Shown here piece by piece: positions 6,608 through 35,592 of a stretch of DNA of 64,000 nt (positions are counted from its first letter, which is position 1; each line of letters begins with the position of its first letter). Source of the stretch: Nitrosopumilus sp. (GTDB taxonomy: Archaea > Thermoproteota > Nitrososphaeria > Nitrososphaerales > Nitrosopumilaceae); contig OZ245040.1 in assembly GCA_965224195.1 (NCBI GenBank), positions 928,001 through 992,000 of the forward strand, read 5' to 3'. The position numbers were made by a program, and so were the translations under genes. The notes beneath the pieces are model-generated. The model saw nothing but the letters and a program-made list of their open reading frames with translations, was not told the origin of the DNA and searched no databases.

Positions 6608-9232
6608 TTAGGTAGGAATTTTGAATGACTTTCCATCCAGCTGTGCACGATCTATCCCTTCCTCGTTTGAATAATATTCATTTTTTAGTAACGGAATCCC
6701 GTTATCAAAATTAAGAATATCAGACAACTTTGCAGAGCCATGAGAATTTTTAATGTTTACTGTAAACTTGGAAAGTATACTACTCCAAATCTTGGTATTA
6801 ATTTTCTTATCAATATGTCCTCCTTGAAAGTTCTTAAGAAATTCATTATACATTTTCCAGATCTGCCTACCTGAAACTTTCTCGCAGGATTGACCTTTAT
6901 GTTGAATAAATTTTAATTCAGATTCTGTAAAATTATCTTCATCTTTTGGAACATCAGCATCAATAATTAAAGAGATTGAATCTTGTTTTATGACATCCAC
7001 CTTGTTAAGTTCTTCAAAATCTAAATGTCGTATGCCTTTTTTAACAACACCAAGTGAAGATGCTTTTATCATGTCGTTGTCTCGGGTTTTTATATGCTCC
7101 AATACTTTGTTGTAATAATCATCAAAATTTCTTTTTTCTAGAAAACCTTGCACCAGTTTAGGCGTATTAAAATCGTCTCCAAGGATTGTTTTCCAGCGGT
7201 GAGAGTCTGCATAAATGAAGCTTGCTGCTTGCTTTTGCCCTTCCTTTAAATTGGTAACAATCAGTTTTGCAGTGTTTTTTTGATTATTCGAATTGCGATT
7301 GATTCTACCTGCAATTTGTTCAATAGAATCAAAAATTGCAAAATCCCTAATTCCGAAATCACAGTCTATGTCTACTCCTGCCTCCACACTTTGTGTGGAA
7401 ATTAAAATTACCTTACCACTAGCATTCATTTTTCCTATGATCTCTTTTCGTCTATGTGGCAGAATTGTTGAATTTAGAAGATATGGATAAAAGCCCATAC
7501 TTGATATTTTTTTGTCTTTTTTTATTTTTTTGTACAATTCCAGAGAAGTTTGAATGGTGTTAACAACCAACAGTATCTTGTTCATGTCATCATTGAGTTC
7601 ATCATTTAATACATTCAATAATTGTTCCAGATCATTAACATTCTGTCTGTATTGAATGGATACGCGATTTTTAAATAATGGAAGATCAGAGTATCTGTTA
7701 GAGTTAATCAGATTCAAGGCAAGGTCAGACTCTTTTGTATCAGATAAAGCATCAAGTCTTGGTAGTGTTGCACTCATGATAATAAAGTAAATGTTAAGAT
7801 ATTTGGAACCATACATTATAAGATCGTTGAAGAGTGTCCAATCCTTGTCATTTAGGCTCTGAATTTCATCTATGACCACAATAGAGTTGGCCAAATTAAC
7901 AAGACGGTAATTACTAGTTTTTCCTGATTTTACAAAGGTGTTAAAAAAATTCACATTACTCATAACAACAAATTCATGATTAAGAAACTCATTATCAATT
8001 ACATATTGTAGACGTTCCTCGTCTTTTTCTGATTCAACATTCCAAGCAGATGAGGAATAGATAGATGATAATTCCTTATCCAAACAAAATGTTTTTTTTA
8101 TCACATCGTGGTTTTGCTCAATTATATTGATGAATGGAAATATGTAAAAGACTCTCTTTATGTTATTCTTTGATTTTAGCAAGGTAAGAGCAAGTTTAAG
8201 GGAAATGTTTGTCTTGCCACCACCTGTAGGAATATTTAGATAAAATACCTTTTGCTCTGGGTGGTTTGATATGGCATTCTCAAGTTCGCAGTCAGTTTCT
8301 AAAAGTATTCTTGTCCTTAATTCATTCAAATCATCAATATCAGAAATATTTGAATCAATTGTATTTTTGGAATGTTTGCTAGTGCGTAGATTTTTATTGA
8401 AATCATAATTGTAAAAGTTCTTTTCACATCTTTTAACCAAGTCTGATGTTATCACAGAGATTTTATCAAAGTAAGAAATATTTTGTATAAAATCACTAGT
8501 AGCATAATAATCACTTGTAATCAAAAGGGAGTAAACTGTTTTGTAAAGATAAAACAGGGATTCTTGTTTTTCTTCAGTATCATAAACATTTCGAATATCA
8601 TCTTTATTTTTATTTTTGAAATTATAAGCATCACAAAAATTTTTTACGGGTGGAAGGTCTTGACAGTCAATGAAAAAAGTATGAGAAATTGTGTTTAAAT
8701 CATCTAATTCTTTTTGAATTGTGTTGTAAGAGATTGTATTGGCACACATTTTTTTGTAAAGAAAGTCAATATCTCTTAATGCTGTATGGTGTCTATCTAT
8801 TGTTTGGGACAAAAGAAAAAAAAGAATTTGACATTTTGTGTCATGGAATTTGTCGTAAAAATCCTTAAAAAATAAATGATCAAATAATATTTTACCATAA
8901 AAAGAATGATTAGAATTGAGATTTTCTATATTGATACATAAATCATTTCTCATCTTTTCTTTCTGAAAAATAGGATTAATCTTACCTAGATCATGATAAT
9001 AAATAATAGACCTAATCAACTCAAGAATATCGGATGTTGGGGTGTCAGGTACTAGCTTTGACAAAATACCATTAAAATTTTCTTTTAGTGATAACGTGTC
9101 AATTAAATGATTACAGTATTTCAATGTCTTCTCCGAATGTTCAATTAGTGTTTCCGAATTTTTGTTACTTGAAGTATGTGCAAAAATTTTGTTGCAATAT
9201 TCAGGTTTTAATATCTGGTTGTATGTTTTCAT
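6608..9232 (-). CDS. cas3: Cas3 HD nuclease-helicase
   Basis: ETLIEHS, YYHDLGK (HD), IPTGGGKT, IDEIQ, MSAT, STQSVEAGVDID, QIAGRINR. Confidence 0.96.
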   Translation of the reverse strand: MKTYNQILKPEYCNKIFAHTSSNKNSETLIEHSEKTLKYCNHLIDTLSLKENFNGILSKLVPDTPTSDILELIRSIIYYHDLGKINPIFQKEKMRNDLCINIENLNSNHSFYGKILFDHLFFKDFYDKFHDTKCQILFFLLSQTIDRHHTALRDIDFLYKKMCANTISYNTIQKELDDLNTISHTFFIDCQDLPPVKNFCDAYNFKNKNKDDIRNVYDTEEKQESLFYLYKTVYSLLITSDYYATSDFIQNISYFDKISVITSDLVKRCEKNFYNYDFNKNLRTSKHSKNTIDSNISDIDDLNELRTRILLETDCELENAISNHPEQKVFYLNIPTGGGKTNISLKLALTLLKSKNNIKRVFYIFPFINIIEQNHDVIKKTFCLDKELSSIYSSSAWNVESEKDEERLQYVIDNEFLNHEFVVMSNVNFFNTFVKSGKTSNYRLVNLANSIVVIDEIQSLNDKDWTLFNDLIMYGSKYLNIYFIIMSATLPRLDALSDTKESDLALNLINSNRYSDLPLFKNRVSIQYRQNVNDLEQLLNVLNDELNDDMNKILLVVNTIQTSLELYKKIKKDKKISSMGFYPYLLNSTILPHRRKEIIGKMNASGKVILISTQSVEAGVDIDCDFGIRDFAIFDSIEQIAGRINRNSNNQKNTAKLIVTNLKEGQKQAASFIYADSHRWKTILGDDFNTPKLVQGFLEKRNFDDYYNKVLEHIKTRDNDMIKASSLGVVKKGIRHLDFEELNKVDVIKQDSISLIIDADVPKDEDNFTESELKFIQHKGQSCEKVSGRQIWKMYNEFLKNFQGGHIDKKINTKIWSSILSKFTVNIKNSHGSAKLSDILNFDNGIPLLKNEYYSNEEGIDRAQLDGKSFKIPT

Positions 9233-9239
9233 TGTTGTA

Positions 9240-10235
9240 TTAGAAGAGGTATATTATATATCCATCTATCTCAAGAAGACTCCCTTTCTCCAAGTCTATT
9301 GAAGACAGGTCACAGCTTTCTGCAAATTGTACAACTTGAAGTTTGTAGTGCATGTCTTGAGAATAACTTGTCGGATAATTTTCAATAAATCTAAATCCAG
9401 TAGGAAGGCCTTCTATTGTACAAGAATCATTGTTTTTTTCAAGAGGATTTGATCTGCTATTTTTTTCATCGCTATTACCAATACTTTTTCTATTTGTGAT
9501 GAATACAGATGATACATGTTCTGTATTTTTTATCTGTCTAACATTATCTATTGTTTGAATGTTATCAAAAGATACAATAAACTCGTTTTTTCCAAGATAT
9601 GGCATAAAAATCGGATTGTTGTCCTCTATCCTTTTTGACAGCTCATCAATTAGCTCTTCTTTGGTGTCGTCATACACGTAAATCCTGTAGGATGGTTTTA
9701 TCAGAAGCTGCTCGTCACAAATTATGTTTTCATACTTGCCGCCACCAAAATAGCTGTTGCGGCTGTTATATCTATTCACTATTTTGTTAAACGGAAAATT
9801 GCCGTTTGGTTTTATTCCAATCTTAAGATGTTTGAGTCTTTTATAATATTCAGGATACTGGATCTCAGATTCTAACTCTTCTATGATTTTATAGTACTCG
9901 TCGCCGTGGTCAAAGTTGCCTTTTTTTATATCTTTTAGGGTGTTTAGTAATTCAAGCAATCTATCACGTGCCTTGAACTTTAATCTTTCAAGTATGATCT
10001 GAATTAAATCGATATCAATTTTATCTTGTTTTTTTGTTGACTTTAACGATTCCAATTGAAGATACTCCAAATTTTCATATTGCTTGTTTATTCCACCCAT
10101 CCCCAATATGCTACCGATTATTCCCAAAATTGCAGGTTTTGGAGGCAGATTGTATGTTAGGCTTATTTTGTTGATATCAGGTTTCTTAAAAAAGCCAAAA
10201 TCCGAACTAATATCAAAGGAGATAAGACTTGTCAT
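9240..10235 (-). CDS. cas5: Type I-B Cas5 with a long internal insertion
   Basis: DFGFFKKPDIN..LTYNLPPKPAILGIIGSILG, EQLLIKPSYRIY, PYLGKNEF. Confidence 0.88.
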   Translation of the reverse strand: MTSLISFDISSDFGFFKKPDINKISLTYNLPPKPAILGIIGSILGMGGINKQYENLEYLQLESLKSTKKQDKIDIDLIQIILERLKFKARDRLLELLNTLKDIKKGNFDHGDEYYKIIEELESEIQYPEYYKRLKHLKIGIKPNGNFPFNKIVNRYNSRNSYFGGGKYENIICDEQLLIKPSYRIYVYDDTKEELIDELSKRIEDNNPIFMPYLGKNEFIVSFDNIQTIDNVRQIKNTEHVSSVFITNRKSIGNSDEKNSRSNPLEKNNDSCTIEGLPTGFRFIENYPTSYSQDMHYKLQVVQFAESCDLSSIDLEKGSLLEIDGYIIYLF

Positions 10236-10255
10236 CAGAATCACACCTAGTTGAT

Positions 10256-11236
10256 TTACTTGTTGTGGATTTCTTCTAAGGTAACAATATGTCTTTTTTT
10301 AACAGGGAACATTTCTATTCCACTTAATTCAGTTTCATTATCATCATAATACAGTTCCACACTTGAAATATATTTTTTATAATTTTTTTCAAATATAATA
10401 AAAAGATCTTCTAAATCTATTTGAGTTTTTCCATTGCTCTTGTTTATTTTGACATGATCTTTCATCATAGGCAGTATATGGGATTCTATTTTTTCATCTT
10501 TTTCATCAGCATTCATTTCAATGAACATGAACAATTCAGAATCAGATCCAATTTTGGAAGCAGATGTAGTATGGCTAACACTACGGCACATTGCTTCTTT
10601 GAACAGTTCTACATCTAATTCTGACAAAAGTGATTCGTTAGTTTTTTTGTCACTATATACTAGCGAATTAATCAAATTATTGGGATTGATCACAAAATCA
10701 TATACATAGTGAGCCTCTAGTGTCTTTGTTTCATTTCCAAGAGTTTGTTGTTTTGCCTCTTTCTTTTTTTCACTTGCCTTTAGATCTGCATATGGAGAAA
10801 GTATTTGATTGTTAAAAAACAGATTTTCATCAAGTTTGTTAATGCCATAAGAAATCTGTGTTGTTCCGGTTAGTGAAACATTAGTTTTTCCAGCATATGT
10901 GGCACCAAATAATCTAACATCAAGTGCAGATGACAATTTGTCAATTGTGTCTGGTTTATTATCAGATGGTTTTGAATTAAAAACCGATTCATAGTTGTCA
11001 TCTATATTGCATGGATTGCCATCTTTTTTGTATCTCCTCCAAACAAACACTTTCTTGCCTTTGTCATGCAAATATTTTCTAACACAATATTTTAGTGCCT
11101 TATCTGTAGCATATATTGTTCCATTGTTATCAGGCAATCTTCGTGGTAATCCGCTAAAATCACTGTTAAAAGAGCTGTTTTGTGTCCTTACAATCAATAG
11201 GCCTTGTGCAAATTTCTTAAAATGTTTGCTTGTCAT
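10256..11236 (-). CDS. cas7: Type I-B Cas7 (Csh2-like)
   Basis: FNSDFSGLPR, ATDKALKYCVRKY, DVRLFGAT, SLTGTTQISYG; start taken at MTSKH. Confidence 0.9.
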   Translation of the reverse strand: MTSKHFKKFAQGLLIVRTQNSSFNSDFSGLPRRLPDNNGTIYATDKALKYCVRKYLHDKGKKVFVWRRYKKDGNPCNIDDNYESVFNSKPSDNKPDTIDKLSSALDVRLFGATYAGKTNVSLTGTTQISYGINKLDENLFFNNQILSPYADLKASEKKKEAKQQTLGNETKTLEAHYVYDFVINPNNLINSLVYSDKKTNESLLSELDVELFKEAMCRSVSHTTSASKIGSDSELFMFIEMNADEKDEKIESHILPMMKDHVKINKSNGKTQIDLEDLFIIFEKNYKKYISSVELYYDDNETELSGIEMFPVKKRHIVTLEEIHNK

Positions 11237-11261
11237 AGACACATCATTCCTTTTTCTTGTA

Positions 11262-12953
11262 TTAAATAATGTTTTCGTCAAATGCTCCAACATAAAATGG
11301 GATCTTTAATGGTATAAACGAACTGTCAGTTTCGTATGAAAGAACACATGATGCAATCTTTCTAAAACGCATATTGCTAAGATTTATCTCATGTCTATAT
11401 TGCTCTATAAGTTGTTCAATTGTTTTCTTGACTAGTTGTGTAGTAGACTTGTTGGTAAACGGTTCAAGAAGCCCATAGGTTTTGTCTTTTGATTTGGACA
11501 AAGACACCAAGTAGTAAGCTATTTGACCTGTAAAGTATGCCCATGCCTCATGACTAGCAATCTCAAATTTTTCAATCTCATTGGATGTAATCTTTTCTTT
11601 TGCATCTTTGATATGGTCTAAAACACAGTTAGTCTTATCTTTATTCTGCAATAACAAATGTCTGTTAAAAAACAAATTAAAGGTTTCCCTATAGTAGAAT
11701 GTAGTGTTATTTCTTATACTTTTTTCCACCCTAAACAAAATGATGTTTTGCAAATCTCTGTCAGTTAGCGTACGCTGATTTCTATAGACAAAATCAAATA
11801 CCTTTTGTCTTAGAGAATAAGTCAAGGTGGTCTGCTGCTGATCTTTTGCACTTATTATTTTACCAAAATATTGAATGTGGGGTTTATCAGTTAATGCTTT
11901 AGATATCTCTGATTCAATTTGAATACGAGTAACGGAATATGACTGTCTATCCTCATCAAAAAAATCTACATATTCACCAATTTCCCATTTATATCCCGTG
12001 ACATAATCAAAGAAATAATAATCATCGTGGGTAATTACAACAAGATAAAAATCAAATATTTTCTTGTCTTGTTTGAGTTGTTTAAAAATAAAATCAAATT
12101 TATTTTCATCTTTTTCTAGGTTAGATCCTAATAATTTGATTTCTGCATTTAGTTCATCAGGTACAATGAACAAAGGAAAAATTTTGATTTTGTAATGTTT
12201 TAGTATTTTATCAAATTTATCTAATTTTAGTACACAATCCCTGCATGCTCTAAGTGGAATACCTTTACCATTTTTACTAAACTTGGTAACATGTTTTAAA
12301 AAAATTTTCTTTTCATCATAGTTGGTCAAAAAATTAGGATTTGAAATTGTAGTGTTTTTGTTACATACAAAACACTCCCCATCAATGACAAGAGATGCCT
12401 TTCCTTGTGCTGTTTTCTTATTAATAGAATCAGATGCAATTTTTTCCCATTGAACAAATCTTTCTTCACCAGTATGAATCAATACATAAAAATTCAGATA
12501 CTTGAAAGTGTTATCGTTTTTTTCTTTCAAATCATCCGCCGCATCTTTTAGAATTTTGTGAATGTTTTTGATTAGTGTTTCATGTTCATTCTTTGAGAAT
12601 TTTGTTTGGCTTATTTTTTTCAAAAAACAGTTGAGGTTTTTGTCTGAAAGTTTGAAGGCAAAAAAAGAGTATGTTGCTAATCCACTCATACTGCCCAATG
12701 CTTTCTGTAGCATAGACGGCAAAATATAACCATCAAAGTTCTTTATTATTTTTTCATAATACTTGTTTTTATCAATCCATTCTTTGATTTTAGAATCATC
12801 ATCTAATATTTCAAGCTCATCATATTCAAGGAAGTTATTCTTTTCTTTGGTTTTAACTATGATAATTTTTTTTCCTGCATAATCTTTTTCAAATTTTTGT
12901 TCTGGTTTGTTTTTGTCATATGTATCAATAAACACGATTATCTCTTTTAGCAT
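11262..12953 (-). CDS. cas8b: Type I-B large subunit Cas8b
   Basis: Position between cas6 and cas7; CFVC...CRDC zinc finger; C-terminal YFTGQIAYYLVSLSKS..YGLLEPF. Confidence 0.8.
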   Translation of the reverse strand: MLKEIIVFIDTYDKNKPEQKFEKDYAGKKIIIVKTKEKNNFLEYDELEILDDDSKIKEWIDKNKYYEKIIKNFDGYILPSMLQKALGSMSGLATYSFFAFKLSDKNLNCFLKKISQTKFSKNEHETLIKNIHKILKDAADDLKEKNDNTFKYLNFYVLIHTGEERFVQWEKIASDSINKKTAQGKASLVIDGECFVCNKNTTISNPNFLTNYDEKKIFLKHVTKFSKNGKGIPLRACRDCVLKLDKFDKILKHYKIKIFPLFIVPDELNAEIKLLGSNLEKDENKFDFIFKQLKQDKKIFDFYLVVITHDDYYFFDYVTGYKWEIGEYVDFFDEDRQSYSVTRIQIESEISKALTDKPHIQYFGKIISAKDQQQTTLTYSLRQKVFDFVYRNQRTLTDRDLQNIILFRVEKSIRNNTTFYYRETFNLFFNRHLLLQNKDKTNCVLDHIKDAKEKITSNEIEKFEIASHEAWAYFTGQIAYYLVSLSKSKDKTYGLLEPFTNKSTTQLVKKTIEQLIEQYRHEINLSNMRFRKIASCVLSYETDSSFIPLKIPFYVGAFDENII

Positions 12954-12993
12954 CTATCACACAACATTGTAATCAATAATTCTAAATTATATA

Positions 12994-13743
12994 TCATTTT
13001 AAAATTATCTTTTTAATAACAGGATTCACAAAACCAAAACCAAGTGAATTTCGTTCCCCTAATCCACAATCAAGAGCAAACTTTTGAATTTTAGGCGAAA
13101 TACCAGATGAAAACTCTATATTCCATAATGACCCAATAATTGGAATTTTTGACGTTCCCTGCTCAATTTTAGTTGATACCTGTTTTTTGAATTCATATCG
13201 CTCAAAGATTCTTTTTTTAATTTGTAATCCAGTAAACTCGGTATATTTTTTTCGCATATTGGCCTCAAGTGCATCAATGAACAGGTCAACTGGATGATCA
13301 GATCTCCACAGGACTGACTTGTAAGGAGCAGTATTCGTTATTTTCCCATAATATTTTTCAATAGGTATACGCACAATTATCGGAGATTGGGTAACTATTT
13401 TTAATGGAAATACTAAATTTTTTTCAGGTACTTTTGTTACCTTAATTATCTTAAATAAACTTCCAATTGATATTAGTACATGATTGTCAATGATTTTGTT
13501 TAATTGATCATGTATCTGGTTTATGAGTTCTTTATCAGGTGAAGATATAATCAAATGGTAATGCTTATAATTTGTTGATTTGAATATGTTTGAAAAGCAA
13601 AAGAACTTGTATCCTTTTTTATCATGTAGTTGATCAAAGCTGCTATTTCGAAGAAAAGAGTAGATAAATCCTTGGATTTTTCCATGATATTCAAAATTAA
13701 TTTGATAATTTTGTAATGGTTTTATGAAAAGCAGTATACGCAT
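12994..13743 (-). CDS. cas6: Cas6 crRNA-processing endoribonuclease
   Basis: LHDKKGYKFFCFSNIF and G-rich loop GLGERNSLGFGF. Confidence 0.95.
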   Translation of the reverse strand: MRILLFIKPLQNYQINFEYHGKIQGFIYSFLRNSSFDQLHDKKGYKFFCFSNIFKSTNYKHYHLIISSPDKELINQIHDQLNKIIDNHVLISIGSLFKIIKVTKVPEKNLVFPLKIVTQSPIIVRIPIEKYYGKITNTAPYKSVLWRSDHPVDLFIDALEANMRKKYTEFTGLQIKKRIFERYEFKKQVSTKIEQGTSKIPIIGSLWNIEFSSGISPKIQKFALDCGLGERNSLGFGFVNPVIKKIILK

Positions 13744-13811
13744 ACTATAATTGATTGAGTTTGCTTATTTCATCTTTTAGTTGAAAAATATGTTTAAGGA
13801 GGTCTTCTCCA

Positions 13812-16800
13812 ATTTCAATCCTCAGTAGTTGGGAAAGTAAAATCTAATTACTTGAGTTTCGGTTATTCCACATCGATTTTATGATGATATTTCTATTAAT
13901 CCTATAATTTGAGCCCGATATTTGTCTAGGCACAAAAATCAATATGGAAAATTTAGTGAAAATCGCCCTCTCACAAGTTACTTTCCCAAGTACTGATCCT
14001 ATAATAGTTCGATTCAAACGAGCCATAATGATGTAGCAACTTTGAAAGATTGGTAATTTCAATCCTATAATAGTTCGATTCAAACTGGGATTTTACTTGT
14101 TGCAGGACAGAGTACCTGGTACATTTCAATCCTATAATAGTTCGATTCAAACCCTTGTCGTCGGTTATGCCAAGGTAAGTTCGTACATAATTTCAATCCT
14201 ATAATAGTTCGATTCAAACTGTCTCGGCCTGGAGGCTTTGGAAACGTTTCCTGGCATTTCAATCCTATAATAGTTCGATTCAAACTGGAAAGCGATGCGG
14301 GATGTGCGACATATATCTGACTATTTCAATCCTATAATAGTTCGATTCAAACGAGCAATGAGGATCTATATAAAAAGATAAATTCACAATTTCAATCCTA
14401 TAATAGTTCGATTCAAACTTGATGAAATTAGAACATCATCTGAGATGTTCTCCGATTTCAATCCTATAATAGTTCGATTCAAACCTAATCGCAAAATCGA
14501 CAACAAGATATTTCCATTCAATTTCAATCCTATAATAGTTCGATTCAAACGTATAGCTCTGAAACATGATATCCTGCTGTGATGCCTATTTCAATCCTAT
14601 AATAGTTCGATTCAAACTAATCAAACCTCCGATCCAGATGTGAATACTTCATCATTTCAATCCTATAATAGTTCGATTCAAACGATCCTGCGTCCTTTAC
14701 CTCGCCGGAAAACGAGTCAAATTTCAATCCTATAATAGTTCGATTCAAACGACGACAATATTAACATGTGAGCGTATGTTAGTTTCATTTCAATCCTATA
14801 ATAGTTCGATTCAAACTCGTAACATAGGCACAAATGCGGCAGGAGTTGGGGTATTTCAATCCTATAATAGTTCGATTCAAACCAGCTGTTACAGCATAAC
14901 AAACATGCTAAATTCCCAATTTCAATCCTATAATAGTTCGATTCAAACTGGTATTGAATCCTATAATAACATCTCAAACGCATAATTTCAATCCTATAAT
15001 AGTTCGATTCAAACACGAAAGCGATGCGGGATGTGTGCCATATACCTGGTGATTTCAATCCTATAATAGTTCGATTCAAACAAGACATGAACAGACTGCT
15101 AAACGCTCAAATTTGTGATTTCAATCCTATAATAGTTCGATTCAAACATGCGCGCTTGATGTATACGCCTACTGTAGATACATCCCATTTCAATCCTATA
15201 ATAGTTCGATTCAAACAGTTCCAAACGATTATAATTATATCGTGATGGCATAATTTCAATCCTATAATAGTTCGATTCAAACATGGCAATCGCCAAGTTC
15301 TAAGACACATTGTAATTTAATTTCAATCCTATAATAGTTCGATTCAAACAATCCATGTCAGCACCTGTCCGTCTGGCGTTATCGTATTTCAATCCTATAA
15401 TAGTTCGATTCAAACCGACAGCAAACGCGCATTCTGCAGGTGTCGCGGCAATATTTCAATCCTATAATAGTTCGATTCAAACCCACGATCAGAGACAGAA
15501 GGAAAAGGGAAACGGATTCATTTCAATCCTATAATAGTTCGATTCAAACCTTGATCCAATAGAATGGGAAACAAGGCATAATACCATTTCAATCCTATAA
15601 TAGTTCGATTCAAACGACAGATCATACTGTTGATATGCCGCGTATATCATGCATTTCAATCCTATAATAGTTCGATTCAAACGCGCACATTTGTATCGTG
15701 AACACTATAAGAGTATTCAATTTCAATCCTATAATAGTTCGATTCAAACTATTGTAATCTGTCATGTAAGCGGTCATTGCGTATTCATTTCAATCCTATA
15801 ATAGTTCGATTCAAACCTTGATCCAATAGAATGGGAAACAAGGCATAATACCATTTCAATCCTATAATAGTTCGATTCAAACGACAGATCATACTGTTGA
15901 TATGCCGCGTATATCATGCATTTCAATCCTATAATAGTTCGATTCAAACCTCAACAGACAAGACGGCAGCGGGGTCAGTGACCTCATTTCAATCCTATAA
16001 TAGTTCGATTCAAACGGCAAACACTCCCCTCCATGTATCACTGCAGCAAAAATTTCAATCCTATAATAGTTCGATTCAAACCGCAGAATATGATAGTGTT
16101 AACAATGTCTACAACAAATTTCAATCCTATAATAGTTCGATTCAAACACGGCACATGGGCAATCAGATCAGCCGGCACCTGATTTCAATCCTATAATAGT
16201 TCGATTCAAACTTTATTCTGTCAGCCATTGTTAAATAAGTTTAATTGTATTTCAATCCTATAATAGTTCGATTCAAACAGTCCGGCGCCACAATACACGT
16301 CTCACCCGCTATTACATTTCAATCCTATAATAGTTCGATTCAAACCAATTCTGGAAATGGATCATCCTCGTCAAACTCGTCATTTCAATCCTATAATAGT
16401 TCGATTCAAACCAGAAATGGAAAAAATACCATCAAACTCTGTAGACCATTTCAATCCTATAATAGTTCGATTCAAACCGCCTTGGGGCAGAGGTATTAAC
16501 ATATTAGATTCTCATTTCAATCCTATAATAGTTCGATTCAAACTTGATACGAATTGCAATGATGGAGGATTCTCTGCAAATTTCAATCCTATAATAGTTC
16601 GATTCAAACCTGTATCAGAATTCATATTCAAACTGAACTTTATGCATTTCAATCCTATAATAGTTCGATTCAAACAATTTGCAAAAATCTTCATTGCAAC
16701 TGTGGGATAAGATTTCAATCCTATAATAGTTCGATTCAAACTGTTCTGTCATATCCGCTAAAATCATGATCCGAATAAATTTCAATCCTATAATAGTTCG

Positions 16801-18529
16801 ATTCAAACTAATTTGCCACTGGACATCATACCCCACTTCATCAAATTTCAATCCTATAATAGTTCGATTCAAACACGAAGATAGAAGCGAGTGCTACACC
16901 GACTACTACATTTCAATCCTATAATAGTTCGATTCAAACGGGTCTGATACAGCCCAAAGAACGCAAAATGCAGAATTTCAATCCTATAATAGTTCGATTC
17001 AAACCGGCAAAGATACAACCGCTAGTGGCTTACACCCCCTATTTCAATCCTATAATAGTTCGATTCAAACGCATTTTTTACACCGTTTGAATCGTTTACC
17101 AGCTTCAATTTCAATCCTATAATAGTTCGATTCAAACGCGGCACATACACAAACGCTGTATCAAGGGGTTGGATTTCAATCCTATAATAGTTCGATTCAA
17201 ACCCAGCTGATGGCAGTGACTTTCAATTATTATAATTTCAATCCTATAATAGTTCGATTCAAACTTATTTCCTGGCCTTGGCTATGATACAGCCTATAAG
17301 ATTTCAATCCTATAATAGTTCGATTCAAACTTTGTCTAGCAAATCTTGCAATCCACCATAAGTTAATTTCAATCCTATAATAGTTCGATTCAAACAAGTC
17401 TGAATTATTGACAATGCCATATACCCATAGAATTTCAATCCTATAATAGTTCGATTCAAACAAAGAATTGCACACATTCACATGTCCGACATCACACATT
17501 TCAATCCTATAATAGTTCGATTCAAACTAAGCGATGACCTAGATGATGCAAAGGTCGATTACGAATTTCAATCCTATAATAGTTCGATTCAAACAAGTAA
17601 CAGATCCTTCTAGTTGTGCTATGTAATCATATTTCAATCCTATAATAGTTCGATTCAAACGAACAACACTTAGGCGTTAAATCCTTCGAGGTTCTAATTT
17701 CAATCCTATAATAGTTCGATTCAAACCTATTACTTTGGTCTTTGATTCTCACTTTGCTCTGAAATTTCAATCCTATAATAGTTCGATTCAAACCAAAAAC
17801 TAGGCTCCTGGATAAAATGCGATGAAGAAGAATTTCAATCCTATAATAGTTCGATTCAAACTTTGCTCGTAAGAGATATCACGGTATGAGAATGACCTAC
17901 ATTTCAATCCTATAATAGTTCGATTCAAACGAGATAACTGATGATGATCTCTGGCAAAGAATACAGTCATTTCAATCCTATAATAGTTCGATTCAAACGT
18001 CTCTAACAGAACAGCAACACGACAGTCATACCACTATTTCAATCCTATAATAGTTCGATTCAAACATGCAACTGATGCGCTGTATTATGTTACAGTTGAT
18101 GATTTCAATCCTATAATAGTTCGATTCAAACAAATTACTATGGCACTATATCCAGGATCGGTAAATGATTTCAATCCTATAATAGTTCGATTCAAACGTT
18201 CCGAAGAGACCGGGATGAGGATGAGGATAAGAATTTCAATCCTATAATAGTTCGATTCAAACTGGAATTGGTGAATCCTGTGAATTTCTGAATTCTTGAA
18301 ATTTCAATCCTATAATAGTTCGATTCAAACTTTGACCGAATTAGCTATGAATCTAGATTTGCATCAATTTCAATCCTATAATAGTTCGATTCAAACTATA
18401 TCAGAATCGTTATAGCAGCGAGGGCAAAGATGAATTTCAATCCTATAATAGTTCGATTCAAACCAGAACTGCCACTAGTGCTATTGTTCCCTATTGGTTA
18501 TTTCAATCCTATAATAGTTCGATTCAAAC
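13812..18529 (-). CRISPR. CRISPR array: 69 repeats of 30 bp (GTTTGAATCGAACTATTATAGGATTGAAAT on the minus strand) and 68 spacers of about 32-39 bp; the terminal repeat is split by a MITE
   Basis: ATTTCAATCCTATAATAGTTCGATTCAAAC recurs every ~66 bp from 14056 to 18529. The ATTGAAAT 3' handle and the leader at 18530+ give minus-strand orientation. Counts are by hand. Confidence 0.98.
13823..13995. mobile_element. 173-bp MITE, ISH3-family-like, with 18-bp TIRs and 5-bp TSD ATCCT
   Basis: Left TIR CAGTAGTTGGGAAAGTAA (13823-13840) and right TIR TTACTTTCCCAAGTACTG (13978-13995), 17/18 match. ATCCT at 13818-13822 and 13996-14000. Removing it restores a perfect repeat. Confidence 0.9.
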
Positions 18530-18679
18530 CCCGCCGTATTTGTGCGTAAGTACTTGTCCTAGCCCATTCTTTATTATTCTATCCCAAGTGCTGCATATGC
18601 TATATAATGGCAGCGATGCAATGTCGTAACTCTCCTTTAGCTGGTTTAATATGGCACCTATTTTTATTATATTTTCCAA
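18530..18679. promoter_or_regulatory. CRISPR leader shared with the divergent cas4 promoter
   Basis: 150-bp non-coding gap; TATA-like TATATAA at ~18601 and TTTAATAT at ~18645. Confidence 0.7.
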
Positions 18680-19171
18680 ATGGCAGATCCCCCCAATCTT
18701 ACTGGAACACAGATAAACTACTATTTTGTGTGCAAGAGAAAGCTCTGGCTGTCCTCACATAACATTGCCTTTGAGTCAAGCTCTGATCTGGTAAAAATTG
18801 GCAGTCTAATAGACAAGGACTCTTTTAAGAGAAAGAAAAAAAACATCCGGATAGGAGACATATCAATAGACCATATTGACAAGGGGGTAATACACGAGGT
18901 CAAAAAATCCGACAAGATTCATGATGCCCATGAATACCAGCTGCTCTACTACATCTACTATCTCAAAAAACTAGGAATAAGGACGACTGGCATACTCAAC
19001 TATCCAAAGCTGAAAAAAACGGTAAAGGTAGTCCTGACAAAACAGAAGCAGGCCTTTTTGGATAACATAGTCCGTGATGCTGCCAAGATAATCTCTGAGA
19101 AAAAGCCTCAAGCTGCAGAATACAAGCCAATATGTGACAAGTGCGCCTATGCGGAGTACTGCTGGTCATGA
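18680..19171 (+). CDS. cas4: Cas4
   Basis: YYFVCKRKLWL, HEVKKS, QLLYYIYYL, CDKCAYAEYC Fe-S cysteines. Confidence 0.95.
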   Translation: MADPPNLTGTQINYYFVCKRKLWLSSHNIAFESSSDLVKIGSLIDKDSFKRKKKNIRIGDISIDHIDKGVIHEVKKSDKIHDAHEYQLLYYIYYLKKLGIRTTGILNYPKLKKTVKVVLTKQKQAFLDNIVRDAAKIISEKKPQAAEYKPICDKCAYAEYCWS

Positions 19172-20154
19172 ACGATTACTACATATTCAAGGGAGGACGG
19201 GTCAAGCGTACTCAAAACACCATACAGATAATATCTGCTGACGATGAGAAAAAATCAATATCTGTAATGGATGTCAGGGCACTGCACATATTTGGCCAGT
19301 GTGACTTTAATTCGGCGTTGATAGTTTTTTTAAACACAAAGGGGATTGCGGTACATTTTTACAACTATTATGGAAATTATGCAGGAAGCTACTATCCGCG
19401 TGAGAAGCTCCTGTCTGGTCTGGTGACAGTACGGCAGGTACAGCATTATCTGAATCAGCAAAAAAGAATGTATCTTGCATCTGAATTCATACGTGCAGCT
19501 ACGCACAACATGCTTGCAAACCTGCGCTATTACAAGTCAAAGAAAAAGGACGTCTCTGTCCACATTGAAAAAATACAGCAACTGCAACAGAAGATGCCCT
19601 CATGCAGTAATATTGATGAGCTGATGGGAATAGAGGGAAACTGCAGAAACATATACTATGATTCATTTGACAGTTTTCTGAGGGATGACTTTAAGATGGA
19701 AAAAAGAACCAGAATGCCGCCACAAAACATGCTTAACTCGCTGATATCGTTTGGAAACAGCATGATGTATGGAAGTGCCGTAACTGAGATATATCACTCA
19801 CAGTTGGATCCTACCGTAAGCTATCTGCACGAGCCTGGATACAGAAGATTTTCATTGTCTTTGGACATCGCCGAGGTGTTCAAACCCGTAATCGTGGACA
19901 AGACAATATTTAAGATCGTAAACAGCAGGATGCTTGGTTCTGGAGACTTTGATGACTCTATGAATGGCTGTTACCTTGGAGAATCTGGGAGGAAGACGTT
20001 TGTCAAAGAGTATGATGAAAGACTGGACAGTACCGTCTATGTCTCTTCATTGAAAAAAAATGTGAGTTACAGGCGACTGTTGAGGATGGAATGCCACAAG
20101 ATAGTCAAGCACATTGTGGAGGATGCACGCTATGTCGGATTCAGACAGAGATAA
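19168..20154 (+). CDS. cas1: Type I-B Cas1
   Basis: HFYNYYGNYAGSYYPRE, LMGIEG, NSLISFGNS, SYLHEP, SLDIAEVFKP; ATG at 19168 overlaps the cas4 stop. Confidence 0.96.
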   Translation: MNDYYIFKGGRVKRTQNTIQIISADDEKKSISVMDVRALHIFGQCDFNSALIVFLNTKGIAVHFYNYYGNYAGSYYPREKLLSGLVTVRQVQHYLNQQKRMYLASEFIRAATHNMLANLRYYKSKKKDVSVHIEKIQQLQQKMPSCSNIDELMGIEGNCRNIYYDSFDSFLRDDFKMEKRTRMPPQNMLNSLISFGNSMMYGSAVTEIYHSQLDPTVSYLHEPGYRRFSLSLDIAEVFKPVIVDKTIFKIVNSRMLGSGDFDDSMNGCYLGESGRKTFVKEYDERLDSTVYVSSLKKNVSYRRLLRMECHKIVKHIVEDARYVGFRQR

Positions 20155-20417
20155 TGTATTGCATAATAACGTATGACATTGGCACAGAGCGGATTGACGC
20201 AGTGCGTATAATGATCAAGCAATACCTCAACTGGATTCAAAATTCGGTCTTTGAAGGAGACATATCTGTGTCAAACTTGGCAGAGTTAAAGTCCAGAGTA
20301 TCTGACCTGATAAATGATGGCGAGGATTCGGTTCTTGTATTTACTGTAAACAATCCTGCATGGATAAAAAAAGAGGTGGTGGGAATTGATAAAAATAACC
20401 TGGATAACATAATATAG
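20154..20417 (+). CDS. cas2: Cas2
   Basis: MYCIITYDI...YLNWIQNSVFEG; TAATG coupling with cas1. Confidence 0.95.
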   Translation: MYCIITYDIGTERIDAVRIMIKQYLNWIQNSVFEGDISVSNLAELKSRVSDLINDGEDSVLVFTVNNPAWIKKEVVGIDKNNLDNII

Positions 20418-20690: not shown

Positions 20691-20820
20691 ATGCTCTATA
20701 CGCAATTATGACATAAAAGATCTATCCTTTTTCTTAATATATAATATGACATTTTCTTGCGATCATAACTTTTTGTGATTTTCACGATTGTTTAAATCAG
20801 GTAAAAACATAGAATATGTT

Positions 20821-22149
20821 ATGGCAACTCAAATGACTTCCGCAAGACGTGGAGTGGCAACTGATGAAATGAAACAAGTTGCAAAAGATGAAGACGTTTC
20901 ACTTGAATGGCTAATCCCTAAAATTGCAAAAGGCTCGATAATTATTCCAAGCAATAATGTAAGACCGCAAAAAATTCACAATGTTGGAATTGGTAAGGGT
21001 CTGAAAACCAAAGTTAATGTCAACATTGGAACTTCTACATTAAATGTAAACATTGAGGAAGAAGTAGAAAAAGCTAAAGTTGCAATAAAATATCATGCAG
21101 ATACTATTATGGACCTCAGTGATGGTGGCGATGTTAAAAAAATACGTCAAATACTAATGGATGCTGCACCAATTACTTTTGGAACTGTTCCGATTTATGA
21201 GGCTTACAACTATGGAGTTGAAGTCCACAAGAATCCTTTGAATTTAATTGAAGATGATTATATCAAAGCATTTGAAAATAATGCAAAAGATGGAGTTGAC
21301 TATACAACAGTTCACTGTGGAATCACAAAAGATATCGCTAAAAGGATTCTCAAAGTTCAACGATATGGTGGTGTTGTGAGTAAAGGTGGTACAATCACTG
21401 CTGCATGGATGTTAAAACACGATAAAGAAAATCCATACATCACTCATTATGATTACATGATGGAAATTGCCAAAAAATATGATGTCACATTTAGCCTCGG
21501 AGATGCATTAAGACCAGGCTCAATTTTAGATTCCCATGATGAATTACAGGTTCAAGAGATGATCAACATATCTAGATTAACAAAACGTGCACATGAACAT
21601 GATATCCAAGTAATGGTTGAAGGTCCCGGCCACGTTCCATTAAACGAAGTTGCTGCAAATGTAAGATTGGCAAAATCCCTAATTGGCGATGTTCCATACT
21701 ATGTTCTAGGTCCATTGGTTACAGATGTTGCATCTGGACATGATCATATTGCTAGTGCAATTGGTGCTGCAATCTCTGCCAGTGAAGGTGTGGATCTTCT
21801 ATGTTATCTTACACCTTCTGAACATTTAGCATTACCAAACGCTGATGAAGTAAAGGCTGGATTAATTGCATATAGAATTGCAGCTCATGCAGGAGATCTT
21901 GTAAAAATTCGTGATAAAGTGATAAAATGGGATATGGAGATGACTGAAGCTCGACGTACATTGGATTGGGAGAAGCAACTAGCATTGTCTATTGATCCTG
22001 AAGAGGCTGCAAAAATTCATAGTAGAACAGGACAACATCCTGGCAATAATGTTCCTTGCACTATGTGTGGTGGTGCTTGTGTTTACATGATGTTGCCACA
22101 ACAGAAAAAATATGATAAAGAAAATGAAAATTTACAACAAGTTGAATAA
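20821..22149 (+). CDS. thiC: Phosphomethylpyrimidine synthase
   Basis: TKVNVNIGTS, MDLS, GTVPIY, SLGDALRPG, MVEGPGH, GHDHI, CTMCGGAC. Confidence 0.97.
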   Translation: MATQMTSARRGVATDEMKQVAKDEDVSLEWLIPKIAKGSIIIPSNNVRPQKIHNVGIGKGLKTKVNVNIGTSTLNVNIEEEVEKAKVAIKYHADTIMDLSDGGDVKKIRQILMDAAPITFGTVPIYEAYNYGVEVHKNPLNLIEDDYIKAFENNAKDGVDYTTVHCGITKDIAKRILKVQRYGGVVSKGGTITAAWMLKHDKENPYITHYDYMMEIAKKYDVTFSLGDALRPGSILDSHDELQVQEMINISRLTKRAHEHDIQVMVEGPGHVPLNEVAANVRLAKSLIGDVPYYVLGPLVTDVASGHDHIASAIGAAISASEGVDLLCYLTPSEHLALPNADEVKAGLIAYRIAAHAGDLVKIRDKVIKWDMEMTEARRTLDWEKQLALSIDPEEAAKIHSRTGQHPGNNVPCTMCGGACVYMMLPQQKKYDKENENLQQVE

Positions 22150-34902: not shown

Positions 34903-35592
34903 ATGGCAGCTGCTAAAAAGCAAACAAAACAAGATCTTGAAAACAAGATTGCCGAATTAGAAGCAAAGCTAAACAAACTTTCTACTCAGCTAGAATCTAA
35001 ACCAGCTGAAGTAAAGCCAGCAGAAACTAAACCTGCTGAGGTAAAACCAGCTGAGACCAAACCAAAAGGTACACTACCTAAAGGTACGGATACAAAACCA
35101 GCTGAAGTAAAGCCAGCTGAGAGACCTGCAGCAACTACCAAACCAAAAGGTACACTACCTAAAGGAACGGAAGAAAAACCAGCAGAAGCTCCAAAACCAG
35201 CTGAAACTACATCACAACCTCCAGCAACTGTACAAGACGCATTAGAGAATGCATACATGACTGCTCCTATGACATCATTCCATGATTATAGAGCAAAAGT
35301 CACAGGCTATTCTCCAGCTCCTAACAGATACTTTGTCAGACTAACTGCTCCTGTAGGTAAAGTCCCAACCAAAAATTGGAATGATCAAAAAGCAGTAGTA
35401 ACAGGTTACACTGCACCATCAAACCAATACTTTGCAACAAGAGCAAGAATGGCATACCATCCTGCTGATAAAACATTTGGAAGTTTTAGTGGAATCAATA
35501 TGTCAGTTGAAGGCGTTGATGCACCAGCACAACAAACTCCAACTCCAGAACCACCAAAGCCTGCAAAAGGTACACTACCAAAAGGTTTCTAA
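34903..35592 (+). CDS. Low-complexity KPAE/GTLPKG-repeat protein, paralog 1
   Basis: N-terminal coiled coil, KPAE(V/T) repeats, 3 GTLPKG motifs. Confidence 0.8.
   Translation: MAAAKKQTKQDLENKIAELEAKLNKLSTQLESKPAEVKPAETKPAEVKPAETKPKGTLPKGTDTKPAEVKPAERPAATTKPKGTLPKGTEEKPAEAPKPAETTSQPPATVQDALENAYMTAPMTSFHDYRAKVTGYSPAPNRYFVRLTAPVGKVPTKNWNDQKAVVTGYTAPSNQYFATRARMAYHPADKTFGSFSGINMSVEGVDAPAQQTPTPEPPKPAKGTLPKGF
35094..35586 (+). repeat. 493-bp direct repeat, copy 1
   Basis: Near-identical to 36107-36599; about 4 substitutions seen by eye. Confidence 0.9.

What the first reader, a model, noticed from the sequence alone, without database searches (positions are those of the whole stretch)
13812..14019. 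MITE inserted precisely inside the terminal CRISPR repeat, next to the cas6 promoter
Seen: ATTTCA-ATCCT | CAGTAGTTGGGAAAGTAA ... TTACTTTCCCAAGTACTG | ATCCT-ATAATAGTTCGATTCAAAC. Removing the 173-bp element and one ATCCT restores a perfect repeat. Established: CAG-starting TIRs with 5-bp A-N3-T duplications fit archaeal ISH3-family elements. No transposase is in the window, so the element is non-autonomous. Inference: of 69 identical targets, the insertion persists only in the last one, where it affects just the oldest crRNA and lies ~80 bp from the cas6 start. It may terminate array transcription or alter cas operon expression, or represent a repeat-targeting MITE family. Array finders would mislabel it as a degenerate trailer repeat.
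Basis: partly seen in the sequence, partly recalled or inferred. Interest (0 to 1): 0.78.

Follow-up and report, generated by a model that had tools for sequence, protein, structure and literature searches.

The report
Orphan MITE splitting the last CRISPR repeat
A 173-base dead "jumping gene" fragment sits inside the oldest repeat of an archaeal CRISPR array, in the one part of the array that is not needed, so it is a real but probably harmless relic.

Summary
Window 13812-14019 is one 30-nt CRISPR repeat split by a 173-bp element (13823-13995). The element has 18-bp terminal inverted repeats (17/18) and a 5-bp duplication, ATCCT. The other 68 repeats are intact and identical.

The element is a true MITE. 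A same-genus genome (Nitrosopumilus by record titles) carries four 172-bp homologues, 78% identical. Identical termini bound 1317-1320-bp insertion sequences whose 371-aa DDE transposase best matches the ISH3 model, below its cut-off. The window's own genome has one copy and no cognate transposase, so the copy is stranded.

Comparison of eight related arrays puts the leader on the cas4 side, so the split repeat is the trailer (oldest) repeat. The insertion keeps repeat positions 1-24, including the predicted Cas6 cut site. Only the last 6 nt, which serve no crRNA, are displaced.

None of 82 other element ends lies in a CRISPR repeat, so repeat targeting is not supported. A regulatory role is untested because no RNA data were available. 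Four of eight related arrays have some transposable element at the trailer end and none inside the array. This fits a permissive site.

This is a new member of a known kind, of modest interest.

The parts
13823..13995 (.). 173-bp MITE. No ORF lies between the termini.
   Evidence: It is 78% identical over its full length to four 172-bp copies in G061. As RNA it folds at -46.2 kcal/mol, z -5.2, through pairing of the termini.
13823..13840 (+). Left terminal inverted repeat, CAGTAGTTGGGAAAGTAA.
   Evidence: The same 18-mer, with C or G at position 6, bounds 1317-1320-bp IS copies in other genomes.
13978..13995 (-). Right terminal inverted repeat. It matches the left one at 17 of 18 positions and is identical to the IS consensus terminus.
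13818..13822 (.). Target-site duplication, left copy (ATCCT).
13996..14000 (.). Target-site duplication, right copy (ATCCT).
13812..13822 (-). Distal piece of the split trailer repeat. It holds positions 20-30 of the repeat as transcribed (AGGATTGAAAT), i.e. the part that would be the 5' tag of a following crRNA, and no such crRNA exists.
   Evidence: Orientation.
13996..14019 (-). Proximal piece of the split trailer repeat. It holds positions 1-24 as transcribed, including the predicted Cas6 cut between positions 22 and 23.
   Evidence: Cas6b cutting 8 nt before the repeat-spacer junction comes from passages of PMC5965381. The position in this repeat is inferred.
14020..14055 (-). Oldest spacer (36 nt).
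14056..18529 (-). 68 intact identical repeats with 67 spacers.
18530..18679 (-). Leader. The flank abutting the ...CAAAC end of the repeat is conserved in 8 of 8 related arrays (CCG/CCCG, ATGC[GC]TAA motif, TATATAAT-like box).
13744..13811 (-). 68-bp stretch between the array trailer and cas6. The block 13766-13780 (-37 to -23 from the ATG) is conserved with G158 and is the likely core promoter of cas6.
   Evidence: Calling it a promoter is an inference.
12994..13743 (-). cas6.
   Evidence: Pfam Cas_Cas6_C. TIGR01877, 95.5 bits, above its cut-off.
6608..12953 (-). A large-subunit-sized ORF with no family hit (11262-12953), then cas7, cas5 (type I-B Cas5b model above its cut-off) and cas3.
18680..20417 (+). 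cas4, cas1 and cas2, divergent from the leader.

Best explanation
The 173-bp insert is a stranded miniature inverted-repeat transposable element (MITE). It belongs to an ISH3-like insertion-sequence family that is common in other, IS-rich members of the same genus (Nitrosopumilus, going by the titles of related records). A DDE transposase supplied in trans made a 5-bp staggered cut at ATCCT and pasted the element into the trailer-most repeat of a 69-repeat type I-B CRISPR array. That transposase came either from a since-lost IS or from an earlier host of this CRISPR-Cas island.

The array is transcribed on the minus strand from a leader next to cas4. The split repeat is therefore the last thing transcribed. 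Because of the duplication, the upstream half still carries repeat positions 1-24. This is the whole 3' handle of the oldest crRNA plus the predicted Cas6 cut site. The displaced piece (the last 6 nt, part of the 8-nt tag) would only serve a following spacer, and none exists.

The insertion also lies 43 bp beyond the conserved block upstream of cas6. It is therefore most likely selectively neutral. It cannot move, because the genome has no cognate transposase. It cannot be purged by recombination between flanking repeats, because no repeat lies beyond it.

Shown: the anatomy, the family membership, the single copy, the absence of a transposase, the array polarity (comparative) and the lack of repeat targeting. 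Inferred: the Cas6 cut position, neutrality, the promoter location, and the reason the element persists.
For: Anatomy.

Homologous copies: four 172-bp copies in G061, 78% identical over the full length. Three were read. They are identical to one another and lie in three different contexts, with flanking duplications AATAC, TTTTT and a 6-bp TAGATC.

Autonomous partner: identical termini bound 1317/1320-bp elements (12 of 27 pairings) that encode a 371-aa protein. That protein hits Pfam DDE_Tnp_1 (28.5 bits, above the 23-bit cut-off). Its best NCBIfam hit is ISH3 (E 1.1e-39, profile positions 4-295 of 298). Homologues occur in 29 of 150 other genomes of the genus.

Own genome (99.85% complete, 2 contigs): 1 MITE copy. 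There are no hits to the transposase or to the ISH3 model, whose control genomes did ring. Terminus-like 18-mers with up to 3 mismatches number 9 beyond the MITE's own two, against 8 for the reversed control pattern.

Polarity: in 8 of 8 related arrays the ...CAAAC end abuts a conserved flank. cas4 or a cas4-like frame follows in the five arrays where that was looked at. All 4 variant repeats seen lie within six repeats of the opposite end, including a degenerate terminal repeat in G176. On the minus strand the repeat ends ATTGAAAT, like the usual 8-nt tag (recalled).

Permissive site: 4 of 8 arrays have a transposable element at the trailer end. These are this MITE, an IS630-family element in G009, an ISH3-like IS 26 bp from the repeat in G158 and an IS66-family transposase about 190 bp away in G173. 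Every repeat-to-repeat interval found in the stretches examined held a spacer of ordinary length, with no insertion (565 spacers of 25-50 nt; spacing).

The cas6 upstream block at -37 to -23 is conserved with G158 and intact.
Against: No transcript data exist, so neutrality is an inference. No MITE-free sister sequence was found (one search shows no joint across the element), so the empty site is reconstructed rather than observed.

The element folds into a strong hairpin (z -5.2) and carries one T5 run on the transcribed strand. It lies between the array and a co-directional cas6 operon, so an effect on read-through cannot be excluded.

The ISH3 hit (136 bits) is below the model's 225-bit cut-off.

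Rfam's CRISPR-DR2 model matched the repeat on the plus strand (27.9 bits, below the 37-bit gathering score). T-run strand bias gave no polarity signal (37 versus 27 runs).

16 of 27 terminus pairings in the other genomes lack a clear duplication.

One insertion in 69 equivalent targets could be chance.
Confidence: 0.75

Rival explanations
1. The MITE has been co-opted as a regulatory element. Its hairpin and T-run would stop or attenuate array read-through before it enters the co-directional cas6 operon, acting as an insulator. Alternatively, it carries an outward promoter that changes cas6-cas3 expression.
For: The element sits exactly between the array trailer and cas6, 80 bp from the ATG. 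It forms a strong hairpin, -46.2 kcal/mol, z -5.2. It has one T5 run on the minus strand at 13934-13938. G000 and G009 are the two genomes seen with the array upstream of, and co-directional with, cas6. Both have a transposable element at that junction.
Against: There are no RNA data. The array itself already contains 4 runs of five or more T on the transcribed strand, so one more is not special. The bacterial-type terminator scan found none, although that scan is not suited to archaea. The conserved block upstream of cas6 lies wholly within the 68-bp flank. Sister MITE copies in G061 sit in unrelated contexts. Four different element families occupy trailer ends, which speaks for tolerance rather than a specific function.
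Confidence: 0.12
2. The MITE family, or its transposase, specifically targets CRISPR repeats, in the way the Tn7-like array-targeting elements or phage PhiAP1.1 do.
For: This copy lies in a repeat. A degraded IS of the same family ends 26 bp from the trailer repeat of a homologous array in G158.
Against: 0 of 82 distinct element ends in the four IS-bearing assemblies lie inside a CRISPR repeat, and only that one end is near one. Clear duplications are diverse: GGACT, AATAC, TTTAT, AATAT, TTTTT, AGCAT, AGACT, GTAAT. The G061 sister copies are in non-CRISPR contexts. Related arrays in genomes that carry the transposase (G158, G176, G014, G009, G017) show no interrupted internal repeats in the stretches examined.
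Confidence: 0.03
3. The array is transcribed on the plus strand. The split repeat would then be the leader-proximal repeat, and the insertion would have disabled spacer acquisition.
For: The repeat is nearly symmetric at its ends (ATTCAAAC on the plus strand, ATTGAAAT on the minus strand). Rfam CRISPR-DR2 matched the plus strand, below threshold. All 69 repeats are identical, so this array offers no degenerate trailer repeat of its own.
Against: The flank on the cas4 side is conserved in 8 of 8 arrays, while the cas6-side flanks are unrelated. In G017 and G014 the same array-plus-flank unit keeps its orientation to cas4 while cas6 lies elsewhere. All 4 variant or degenerate repeats lie at the end far from cas4.
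Confidence: 0.05
4. The element did not insert in this genome. The whole CRISPR-Cas island, already carrying the MITE, was acquired from a relative that had the transposase.
For: The genome has no cognate transposase or second copy. The island lies between thiamine genes, ThiD/ThiN at 4920-6221 and ThiC at 20788-22149. Homologous cas6 DNA occurs in only 4 of 150 other genomes of the genus and related arrays in 7. cas modules are arranged three different ways among them.
Against: This was not tested directly. No donor with the same spacers or junction was found. It is a variant of the main explanation about where the insertion happened, not a different account of what the element is.
Confidence: 0.3

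Closest known systems
Archaeal MITEs mobilised in trans by resident IS (Sulfolobus SMN1/ISC1733 and SM3A/ISC1058)
   Same: These are short, ORF-less elements with TIRs and short flanking duplications that depend on a related IS transposase. SM3A copies are described as stranded in strains lacking a functional ISC1058 transposase (passages of PMC3718332). This copy is stranded in the same way.
   Different: The IS family and host phylum differ. Here only the 18-20-nt termini are shared with the IS and the interior is unrelated. The host genome has a single copy.
HqIRS37 MITE inside the residual CRISPR of Haloquadratum walsbyi HBSQ001
   Same: It is an archaeal MITE inserted inside a CRISPR array (passage of PMC3119063).
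   Different: That one is in a spacer of a cas-less remnant array. This one is inside a repeat, at the trailer, of a large array with a full set of cas genes.
ISH3 family insertion sequences
   Same: The partner IS is 1317-1320 bp and makes 5-bp duplications. Its DDE transposase has ISH3 as best NCBIfam match over nearly the whole profile. The termini begin CAGT. The family's usual size range, 4-5-bp duplication and terminal bases are recalled from ISfinder and were not checked here.
   Different: The score of 136 bits is well below the model's 225-bit cut-off, so this is at most a distant branch. Passages of PMC6563490 say ISH3 is among the IS families restricted to a single species in that 21-genome thaumarchaeal survey, and they describe an ISH3 element in a Nitrososphaera gargensis provirus.
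Tn7-like array-targeting transposons of cyanobacteria and phage PhiAP1.1 integration into CRISPR repeats
   Same: These are mobile DNA found inside CRISPR arrays. The Tn7-like elements often sit near the last repeat, and the authors suspect no harm to immunity (passages of PMC11837452).
   Different: Those elements recognise the repeat as an attachment site, and the Tn7-like ones insert in the spacer. Here there is no sign of repeat recognition (0 of 82 other ends), and the insertion is within the repeat.
IS and MITE insertions that inactivate CRISPR-Cas; IS6110 in the M. tuberculosis DR locus
   Same: Transposable elements landing in CRISPR-Cas loci are widespread (passages of PMC10359306). 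The IS6110 example is recalled. For it I saw only search listings.
   Different: The reported insertions in cas genes abolish immunity. This one spares all cas genes, the leader, all spacers and probably all crRNAs.

Membership tests
MITE (non-autonomous DNA transposon) | Short, with no coding capacity of its own | tested here: met
   The element is 173 bp. The only ORFs of 20 aa or more that overlap it run out of it into the array or are 24-30 aa long.
MITE (non-autonomous DNA transposon) | Terminal inverted repeats | tested here: met
   The termini are 18 nt and match at 17 of 18 positions. They are the only two matches in the window, against 0.04 expected.
MITE (non-autonomous DNA transposon) | Target-site duplication whose removal restores the target | tested here: met
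   ATCCT occurs on both sides, and removal restores the exact 30-nt repeat and the 66-bp period.
MITE (non-autonomous DNA transposon) | Homologous copies at other sites with their own duplications | tested here: met
   There are four 172-bp copies in G061. The three copies read are in different contexts, two with 5-bp and one with 6-bp duplications. The fourth has no clear duplication.
MITE (non-autonomous DNA transposon) | An autonomous IS with the same termini | tested here: met
   Elements of 1317/1320 bp with identical termini and a 371-aa DDE transposase exist in other genomes of the genus. None exists in the window's own genome.
MITE (non-autonomous DNA transposon) | Multiple copies in the host genome | tested here: not met
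   The 2.07-Mb genome holds a single copy. The element is a member of the family but is not amplified here.
ISH3 family (for the partner IS) | Transposase scores above the curated ISH3 model cut-off | tested here: not met
   NF033541 is the best hit (E 1.1e-39, profile positions 4-295 of 298), but it scores 136.3 bits against a 225-bit cut-off. I therefore call the IS 'ISH3-like'.
ISH3 family (for the partner IS) | DDE_Tnp_1 (IS4-type) catalytic domain | tested here: met
   PF01609 scores 28.5 bits against a 23-bit cut-off. The catalytic residues were not mapped.
ISH3 family (for the partner IS) | Short (4-5 bp) duplication and an element of about 1.2-1.5 kb (family values recalled) | tested here: met
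   9 of 27 pairings have identical 5-bp flanks, and 2 more have 6 bp by eye. Lengths are 1317/1320 bp in 12 pairings and 1460/1463 bp in 5. 16 of 27 show no clear duplication.
Type I-B CRISPR-Cas (context) | cas6, cas7, cas5, cas3, cas4, cas1 and cas2 present, with subtype-specific models | tested here: met
   Pfam hits for all seven. The Cas5 protein scores 106.4 bits on the type I-B Cas5b model, cut-off 97, and Cas6 passes TIGR01877.
Type I-B CRISPR-Cas (context) | Cas8b large subunit | tested here: inconclusive
   The 563-aa ORF in the expected position (11262-12953) hits no Pfam or NCBIfam family.
CRISPR-repeat-targeting mobile elements | Most copies lie at or in CRISPR repeats | tested here: not met
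   0 of 82 other element ends lie in a repeat, and 1 lies 26 bp from one.

The most novel reading that the evidence does not exclude
In this Nitrosopumilus type I-B lineage, the trailer end of the array may be a recurrent landing site for unrelated transposable elements. Four of eight arrays have one there: ISH3-like twice, IS630 once and IS66 once. The leader side is never hit. These elements may be more than tolerated. They could insulate the cas6 operon from array read-through in genomes where the effector module has moved downstream of the array. They could also be the agents that shuffle the effector module and the adaptation-plus-array module into the three architectures seen.
Probability: 0.12. 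Interest if true: 0.55.

Novelty: new member of a known kind. Interest (0 to 1): 0.3.

Why it matters
The practical point is for annotation. Array finders will report 68 repeats plus a 'degenerate' end, and they will miss both the 69th repeat and the element.

Biologically, the insertion is a clean natural example of where a CRISPR array can absorb mobile DNA without cost. That place is the 3' part of the trailer repeat, which decays by point mutation in a relative (G176). The insertion also documents an ISH3-like IS and MITE family in Nitrosopumilus. An earlier 21-genome survey of the phylum (passages of PMC6563490) listed ISH3 among the IS families restricted to a single species.

The stranded copy is a datable marker of past contact with that IS family, or of horizontal transfer of the CRISPR-Cas island. 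None of this changes how CRISPR or transposition is understood.

Tried and rejected
RNA evidence. The look-up of sequencing runs listed no RNA holder, so transcript ends across 13744-14060 could not be mapped.

Empty site. Read laying on X1-X4 gave no joint that skips the element. X3 and X4 gave only short pieces that stop at or before the junction.

Protospacers and PAM for polarity. The whole array searched against the phage collection gave no match. Against 151 genomes of the genus it gave only other arrays or solitary repeat-like hits.

T-run strand bias in 565 spacers of 8 arrays showed 37 T5+ runs against 27 A5+ runs, so there was no polarity signal.

Rfam gave only a sub-threshold CRISPR-DR2 hit on the plus strand, and nothing in the MITE.

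The bacterial promoter and terminator scan is not informative for an archaeon.

More MITE copies. A 22-nt internal motif shared by the two MITE variants found 3 metagenome contigs, all of which match only about 23-26 nt. I read these as chance hits. It found 0 viral contigs. Neither the MITE DNA nor the transposase protein matched the phage collection.

60 relatives gave only two short partial hits to the MITE.

The search for homologous proteins found 116 relatives of the transposase, but none carries a family name.

Of the 72 stretches holding the terminus 18-mer, 22 are single hits in unrelated bacteria. By my own arithmetic that is about what a random 18-mer gives in 596 Gb (roughly 35 expected), so I ignored them.

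Literature. Searches (12 papers; 16 papers; 64 papers, 15 listed) turned up no description of this MITE or of an ISH3-like IS in Nitrosopumilus. Supplementary tables of PMC6563490 and PMC13343696, which list IS coordinates, were closed and might name such elements.

Structure prediction, complex prediction and the search of protein representatives were not used because nothing in the question needed them.
Full report
**1. Observation.**

It reads ATTTCAATCCT (13812-13822), then a 173-bp insert (13823-13995), then ATCCTATAATAGTTCGATTCAAAC (13996-14019). The insert begins CAGTAGTTGGGAAAGTAA and ends TTACTTTCCCAAGTACTG.

The two 18-nt ends are inverted copies of each other at 17 of 18 positions. 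They are the only matches in the 64-kb window, against 0.04 expected. ATCCT flanks the insert on both sides. Removing the insert and one ATCCT gives the exact 30-nt repeat. It also restores the 66-bp period to the next repeat at 14056.

Sixty-eight further repeats, all identical, run from 14056 to 18529. The repeat occurs nowhere else in the 2.07-Mb genome. Contigs of two public runs from one study carry the insert without any difference. These runs may be the assembly's own source.

**2. What the insert is.**

It is single-copy in its own genome and was not found in 60 relatives. A scan of 185,579 species genomes for the terminus found 72 stretches. Fifty of them lie in four assemblies titled Nitrosopumilus sp., often as inverted pairs about 1.3 kb apart. 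The other 22 are single hits in unrelated bacteria, about the number chance predicts by my arithmetic.

The 1317/1320-bp pairs enclose one 371-aa ORF. It hits Pfam DDE_Tnp_1 above threshold. Its best NCBIfam match is the ISH3 transposase model (E 1.1e-39, nearly full profile), but at 136 bits against a 225-bit cut-off. I therefore call it ISH3-like.

One of these assemblies (G061) also holds four 172-bp elements that align with the window's insert over its full length at 78% identity. The three I read are identical to each other and lie in three unrelated places. Their flanking duplications are AATAC, TTTTT and, by eye, a 6-bp TAGATC.

Other short derivatives with the same termini also exist. 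These are 335, 333 and 444 bp long, and two of them have 5-bp duplications.

The insert shares only its 18-20 terminal bases with the full IS. It is therefore a genuine MITE of an ISH3-like IS family.

Of 27 terminus pairings, 9 have identical 5-bp flanks and 2 have 6-bp flanks by eye. The other 16 have none, as might be expected if IS copies recombine in IS-rich genomes. Counting the window's copy, 4 of 10 five-bp duplications fit A-N3-T, so that rule does not hold. Nine of the 10 end in T.

**3. The copy is stranded.**

The window's genome is 99.85% complete in 2 contigs. It gives no hit to the 371-aa transposase. It gives no hit to the ISH3 model either, and that model did ring in its control genomes. 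Terminus-like 18-mers are not above background, with 9 weak matches against 8 for the reversed control pattern.

The genome is not free of insertion sequences. It has 64 DDE_Tnp_1 matches, and the one I classified is an IS5-family transposase above its cut-off. Nothing suggests that IS5 enzymes recognise these termini.

Homologues of the ISH3-like transposase occur in 29 of 150 other genomes of the genus.

**4. Which end of the array is hit.**

The cas genes lie on both sides of the array.
- On the left, on the minus strand, are cas6, an unrecognised 563-aa ORF, cas7, cas5 (type I-B Cas5b model above its cut-off) and cas3.
- On the right, on the plus strand, are cas4, cas1 and cas2.

Arrays with the same or nearly the same repeat exist in seven other genomes of the genus. 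In all eight arrays the ...CAAAC end of the repeat abuts a related flank that starts CCG/CCCG and has an ATGC[GC]TAA motif about 10-17 nt on. Most also have a TATA-like box there.

About 150 bp beyond that flank comes cas4 (G000), a readable cas4-like frame (G009, G017 and G014) or a cas4-sized ORF (G158). I did not look at what follows in G036, G173 and G176.

In G017 and G014 this array-flank-cas4 unit keeps its orientation while cas6 lies downstream of cas2. The flank therefore travels with the array. It does not travel with cas6.

The flanks at the opposite end are unrelated to each other. All four variant repeats seen lie at that far end. They are G176 repeats 1 and 3, G173 repeat 6 of 61, and G158 repeat 2 of 12. 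The terminal G176 repeat is degenerate precisely in the part that is displaced here.

Read on the minus strand, the repeat ends ATTGAAAT, like the common 8-nt crRNA tag. That motif is recalled. Passages of PMC5965381 state that Cas6b cuts 8 nt before the repeat-spacer junction.

I conclude that the leader is 18530-18679, that the array is transcribed on the minus strand, and that the split repeat is the trailer. Two tests gave no help: T-run strand bias and a sub-threshold Rfam hit on the plus strand.

**5. Consequences of the insertion.**

As transcribed, the split repeat reads positions 1-24, then the MITE, then positions 20-30. The upstream piece keeps the whole 22-nt 3' handle of the oldest crRNA and 2 nt beyond the predicted cut. 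The displaced 6 nt belong to a tag that no spacer follows. All 68 spacers keep an intact repeat on their 5' side.

Upstream of cas6, a block at -37 to -23 (13766-13780) is conserved with the closest cas6 relative, G158 (81% DNA identity). Sequence further upstream is not conserved. The likely core promoter therefore lies inside the 68-bp flank, 43 bp from the insert.

The most economical reading is a neutral insertion. It persists because it cannot transpose, having no transposase. It also cannot be looped out by recombination between flanking repeats, having no distal repeat. The last two sentences are inference.

**6. Is the family aimed at repeats?**

It is not. Of 82 distinct element ends in the four IS-bearing assemblies, none lies in a CRISPR repeat. 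The stretches of the eight arrays that I examined gave 565 spacers of ordinary length and no interrupted internal repeat.

One end is near an array. A degraded IS of the same family stops 26 bp outside the trailer repeat of the 12-repeat array of G158.

G009 has a split IS630-family transposase between its intact trailer repeat and cas6. G173 has an IS66-family transposase about 190 bp from its trailer repeat.

The other four trailer flanks showed no transposase among the ORFs of at least 110 aa that I scanned. That was 5 ORFs in G176, G036 and G017. G014 has no ORF that long in its flank.

So 4 of 8 arrays carry some transposable element at the trailer end. None was seen in the leader flank of the five arrays where I looked at what follows the array. 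These genomes are IS-rich and the sample is small and related. I therefore read this as tolerance at a harmless site, not as proof of targeting.

**7. Comparison with what is known.**

MITEs stranded without their transposase are described in Sulfolobus (PMC3718332, passages). A MITE inside a CRISPR spacer is described in Haloquadratum (PMC3119063, passage). IS and MITE insertions into cas genes are widespread (PMC10359306, passages).

Elements that truly use CRISPR repeats as attachment sites exist: Tn7-like transposons and phage PhiAP1.1 (PMC11837452, passages). The present case shares the location with those but not the mechanism.

Passages of PMC6563490 say ISH3 is among the IS families restricted to a single species in a 21-genome thaumarchaeal survey. 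A 2026 survey notes a Nitrosopumilus assembly with 14.95% IS content (PMC13343696, passage). I found no paper naming this IS or MITE. Supplementary tables were closed.

**8. Verdict.**

The suggestions of repeat targeting and of an A-N3-T rule are not supported. A regulatory role remains untested and is, on present evidence, unlikely (about 0.12).

This is a new member of a known kind, with interest 0.3. The boldest reading still open is that trailer ends in this lineage are a functional sink or insulator site for transposable elements, tied to the shuffling of cas modules (probability about 0.12).

Noticed in passing
L116:6640-7830 (G009), between cas6 and the trailer repeat: An IS630-family transposase split into two overlapping ORFs (profile positions 15-135 and 183-297) lies between the intact terminal repeat of a 102-repeat array and cas6. 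This is the same junction that holds the MITE in the window. The element's boundaries were not mapped.
   Followed up: partly
L142:475-2229 (G158); the same junction is seen in L093: A degraded ISH3-like IS (911-2229, transposase frame broken) ends 26 bp outside the trailer repeat of a 12-repeat array with the same repeat. A further lone terminus lies at 475. No flanking duplication is seen.
   Followed up: partly
L132:1-1314 (G173): An IS66-family transposase (DDE_Tnp_IS66, E 5e-41) lies about 190 bp from the trailer repeat of a 61-repeat array of the same repeat family.
   Followed up: partly
window 6608-20417; L115, L117, L142: The effector module (cas6 to cas3) and the array-leader-cas4-cas1-cas2 module occur in three arrangements within the genus. 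In G000 and G009 the effector module is upstream of the trailer and co-directional with array transcription. In G017 and G014 the order is collinear: array, cas4-1-2, cas6. In G158 the modules are convergent and about 10 kb apart.
   Followed up: partly
window 4920-6221 and 20788-22149: The whole CRISPR-Cas locus sits between a ThiD/ThiN fusion gene and ThiC. This looks like an island inserted within a thiamine-biosynthesis neighbourhood. Relatives lacking the locus were not compared.
   Followed up: no
own genome G000, e.g. L144:1417-2283: The genome has 64 DDE_Tnp_1 matches. The one classified is an IS5-family transposase above its cut-off, present in several identical copies. The genome is therefore IS-rich although it lacks the MITE's own IS family.
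   Followed up: partly
window 11262-12953 (-): The 563-aa ORF in the Cas8b position has no Pfam or NCBIfam hit. It is possibly a divergent large subunit.
   Followed up: no
window 14261-14350: In run X1 a second contig of similar depth (177 versus 241) covers one repeat-spacer-repeat unit with 8 differences. Four of them are listed within the spacer, at 14307-14320. This suggests a variant of the spacer in the sampled population or a near-duplicate spacer elsewhere.
   Followed up: no
window 34987-35064 and 36057-36134: There are two short tandem arrays with period 15/30 and the same unit (AAACCAGCTGAAGTA-like), about 1 kb apart. They are probably a repeated peptide motif in a coding region.
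   Followed up: no
window 18595-18615; L118, L117: A TATATAAT-like box with a flanking CTGCAT is conserved in the leader of G000 and G009, midway between the first repeat and cas4. It may serve divergent transcription of the array and cas4.
   Followed up: no
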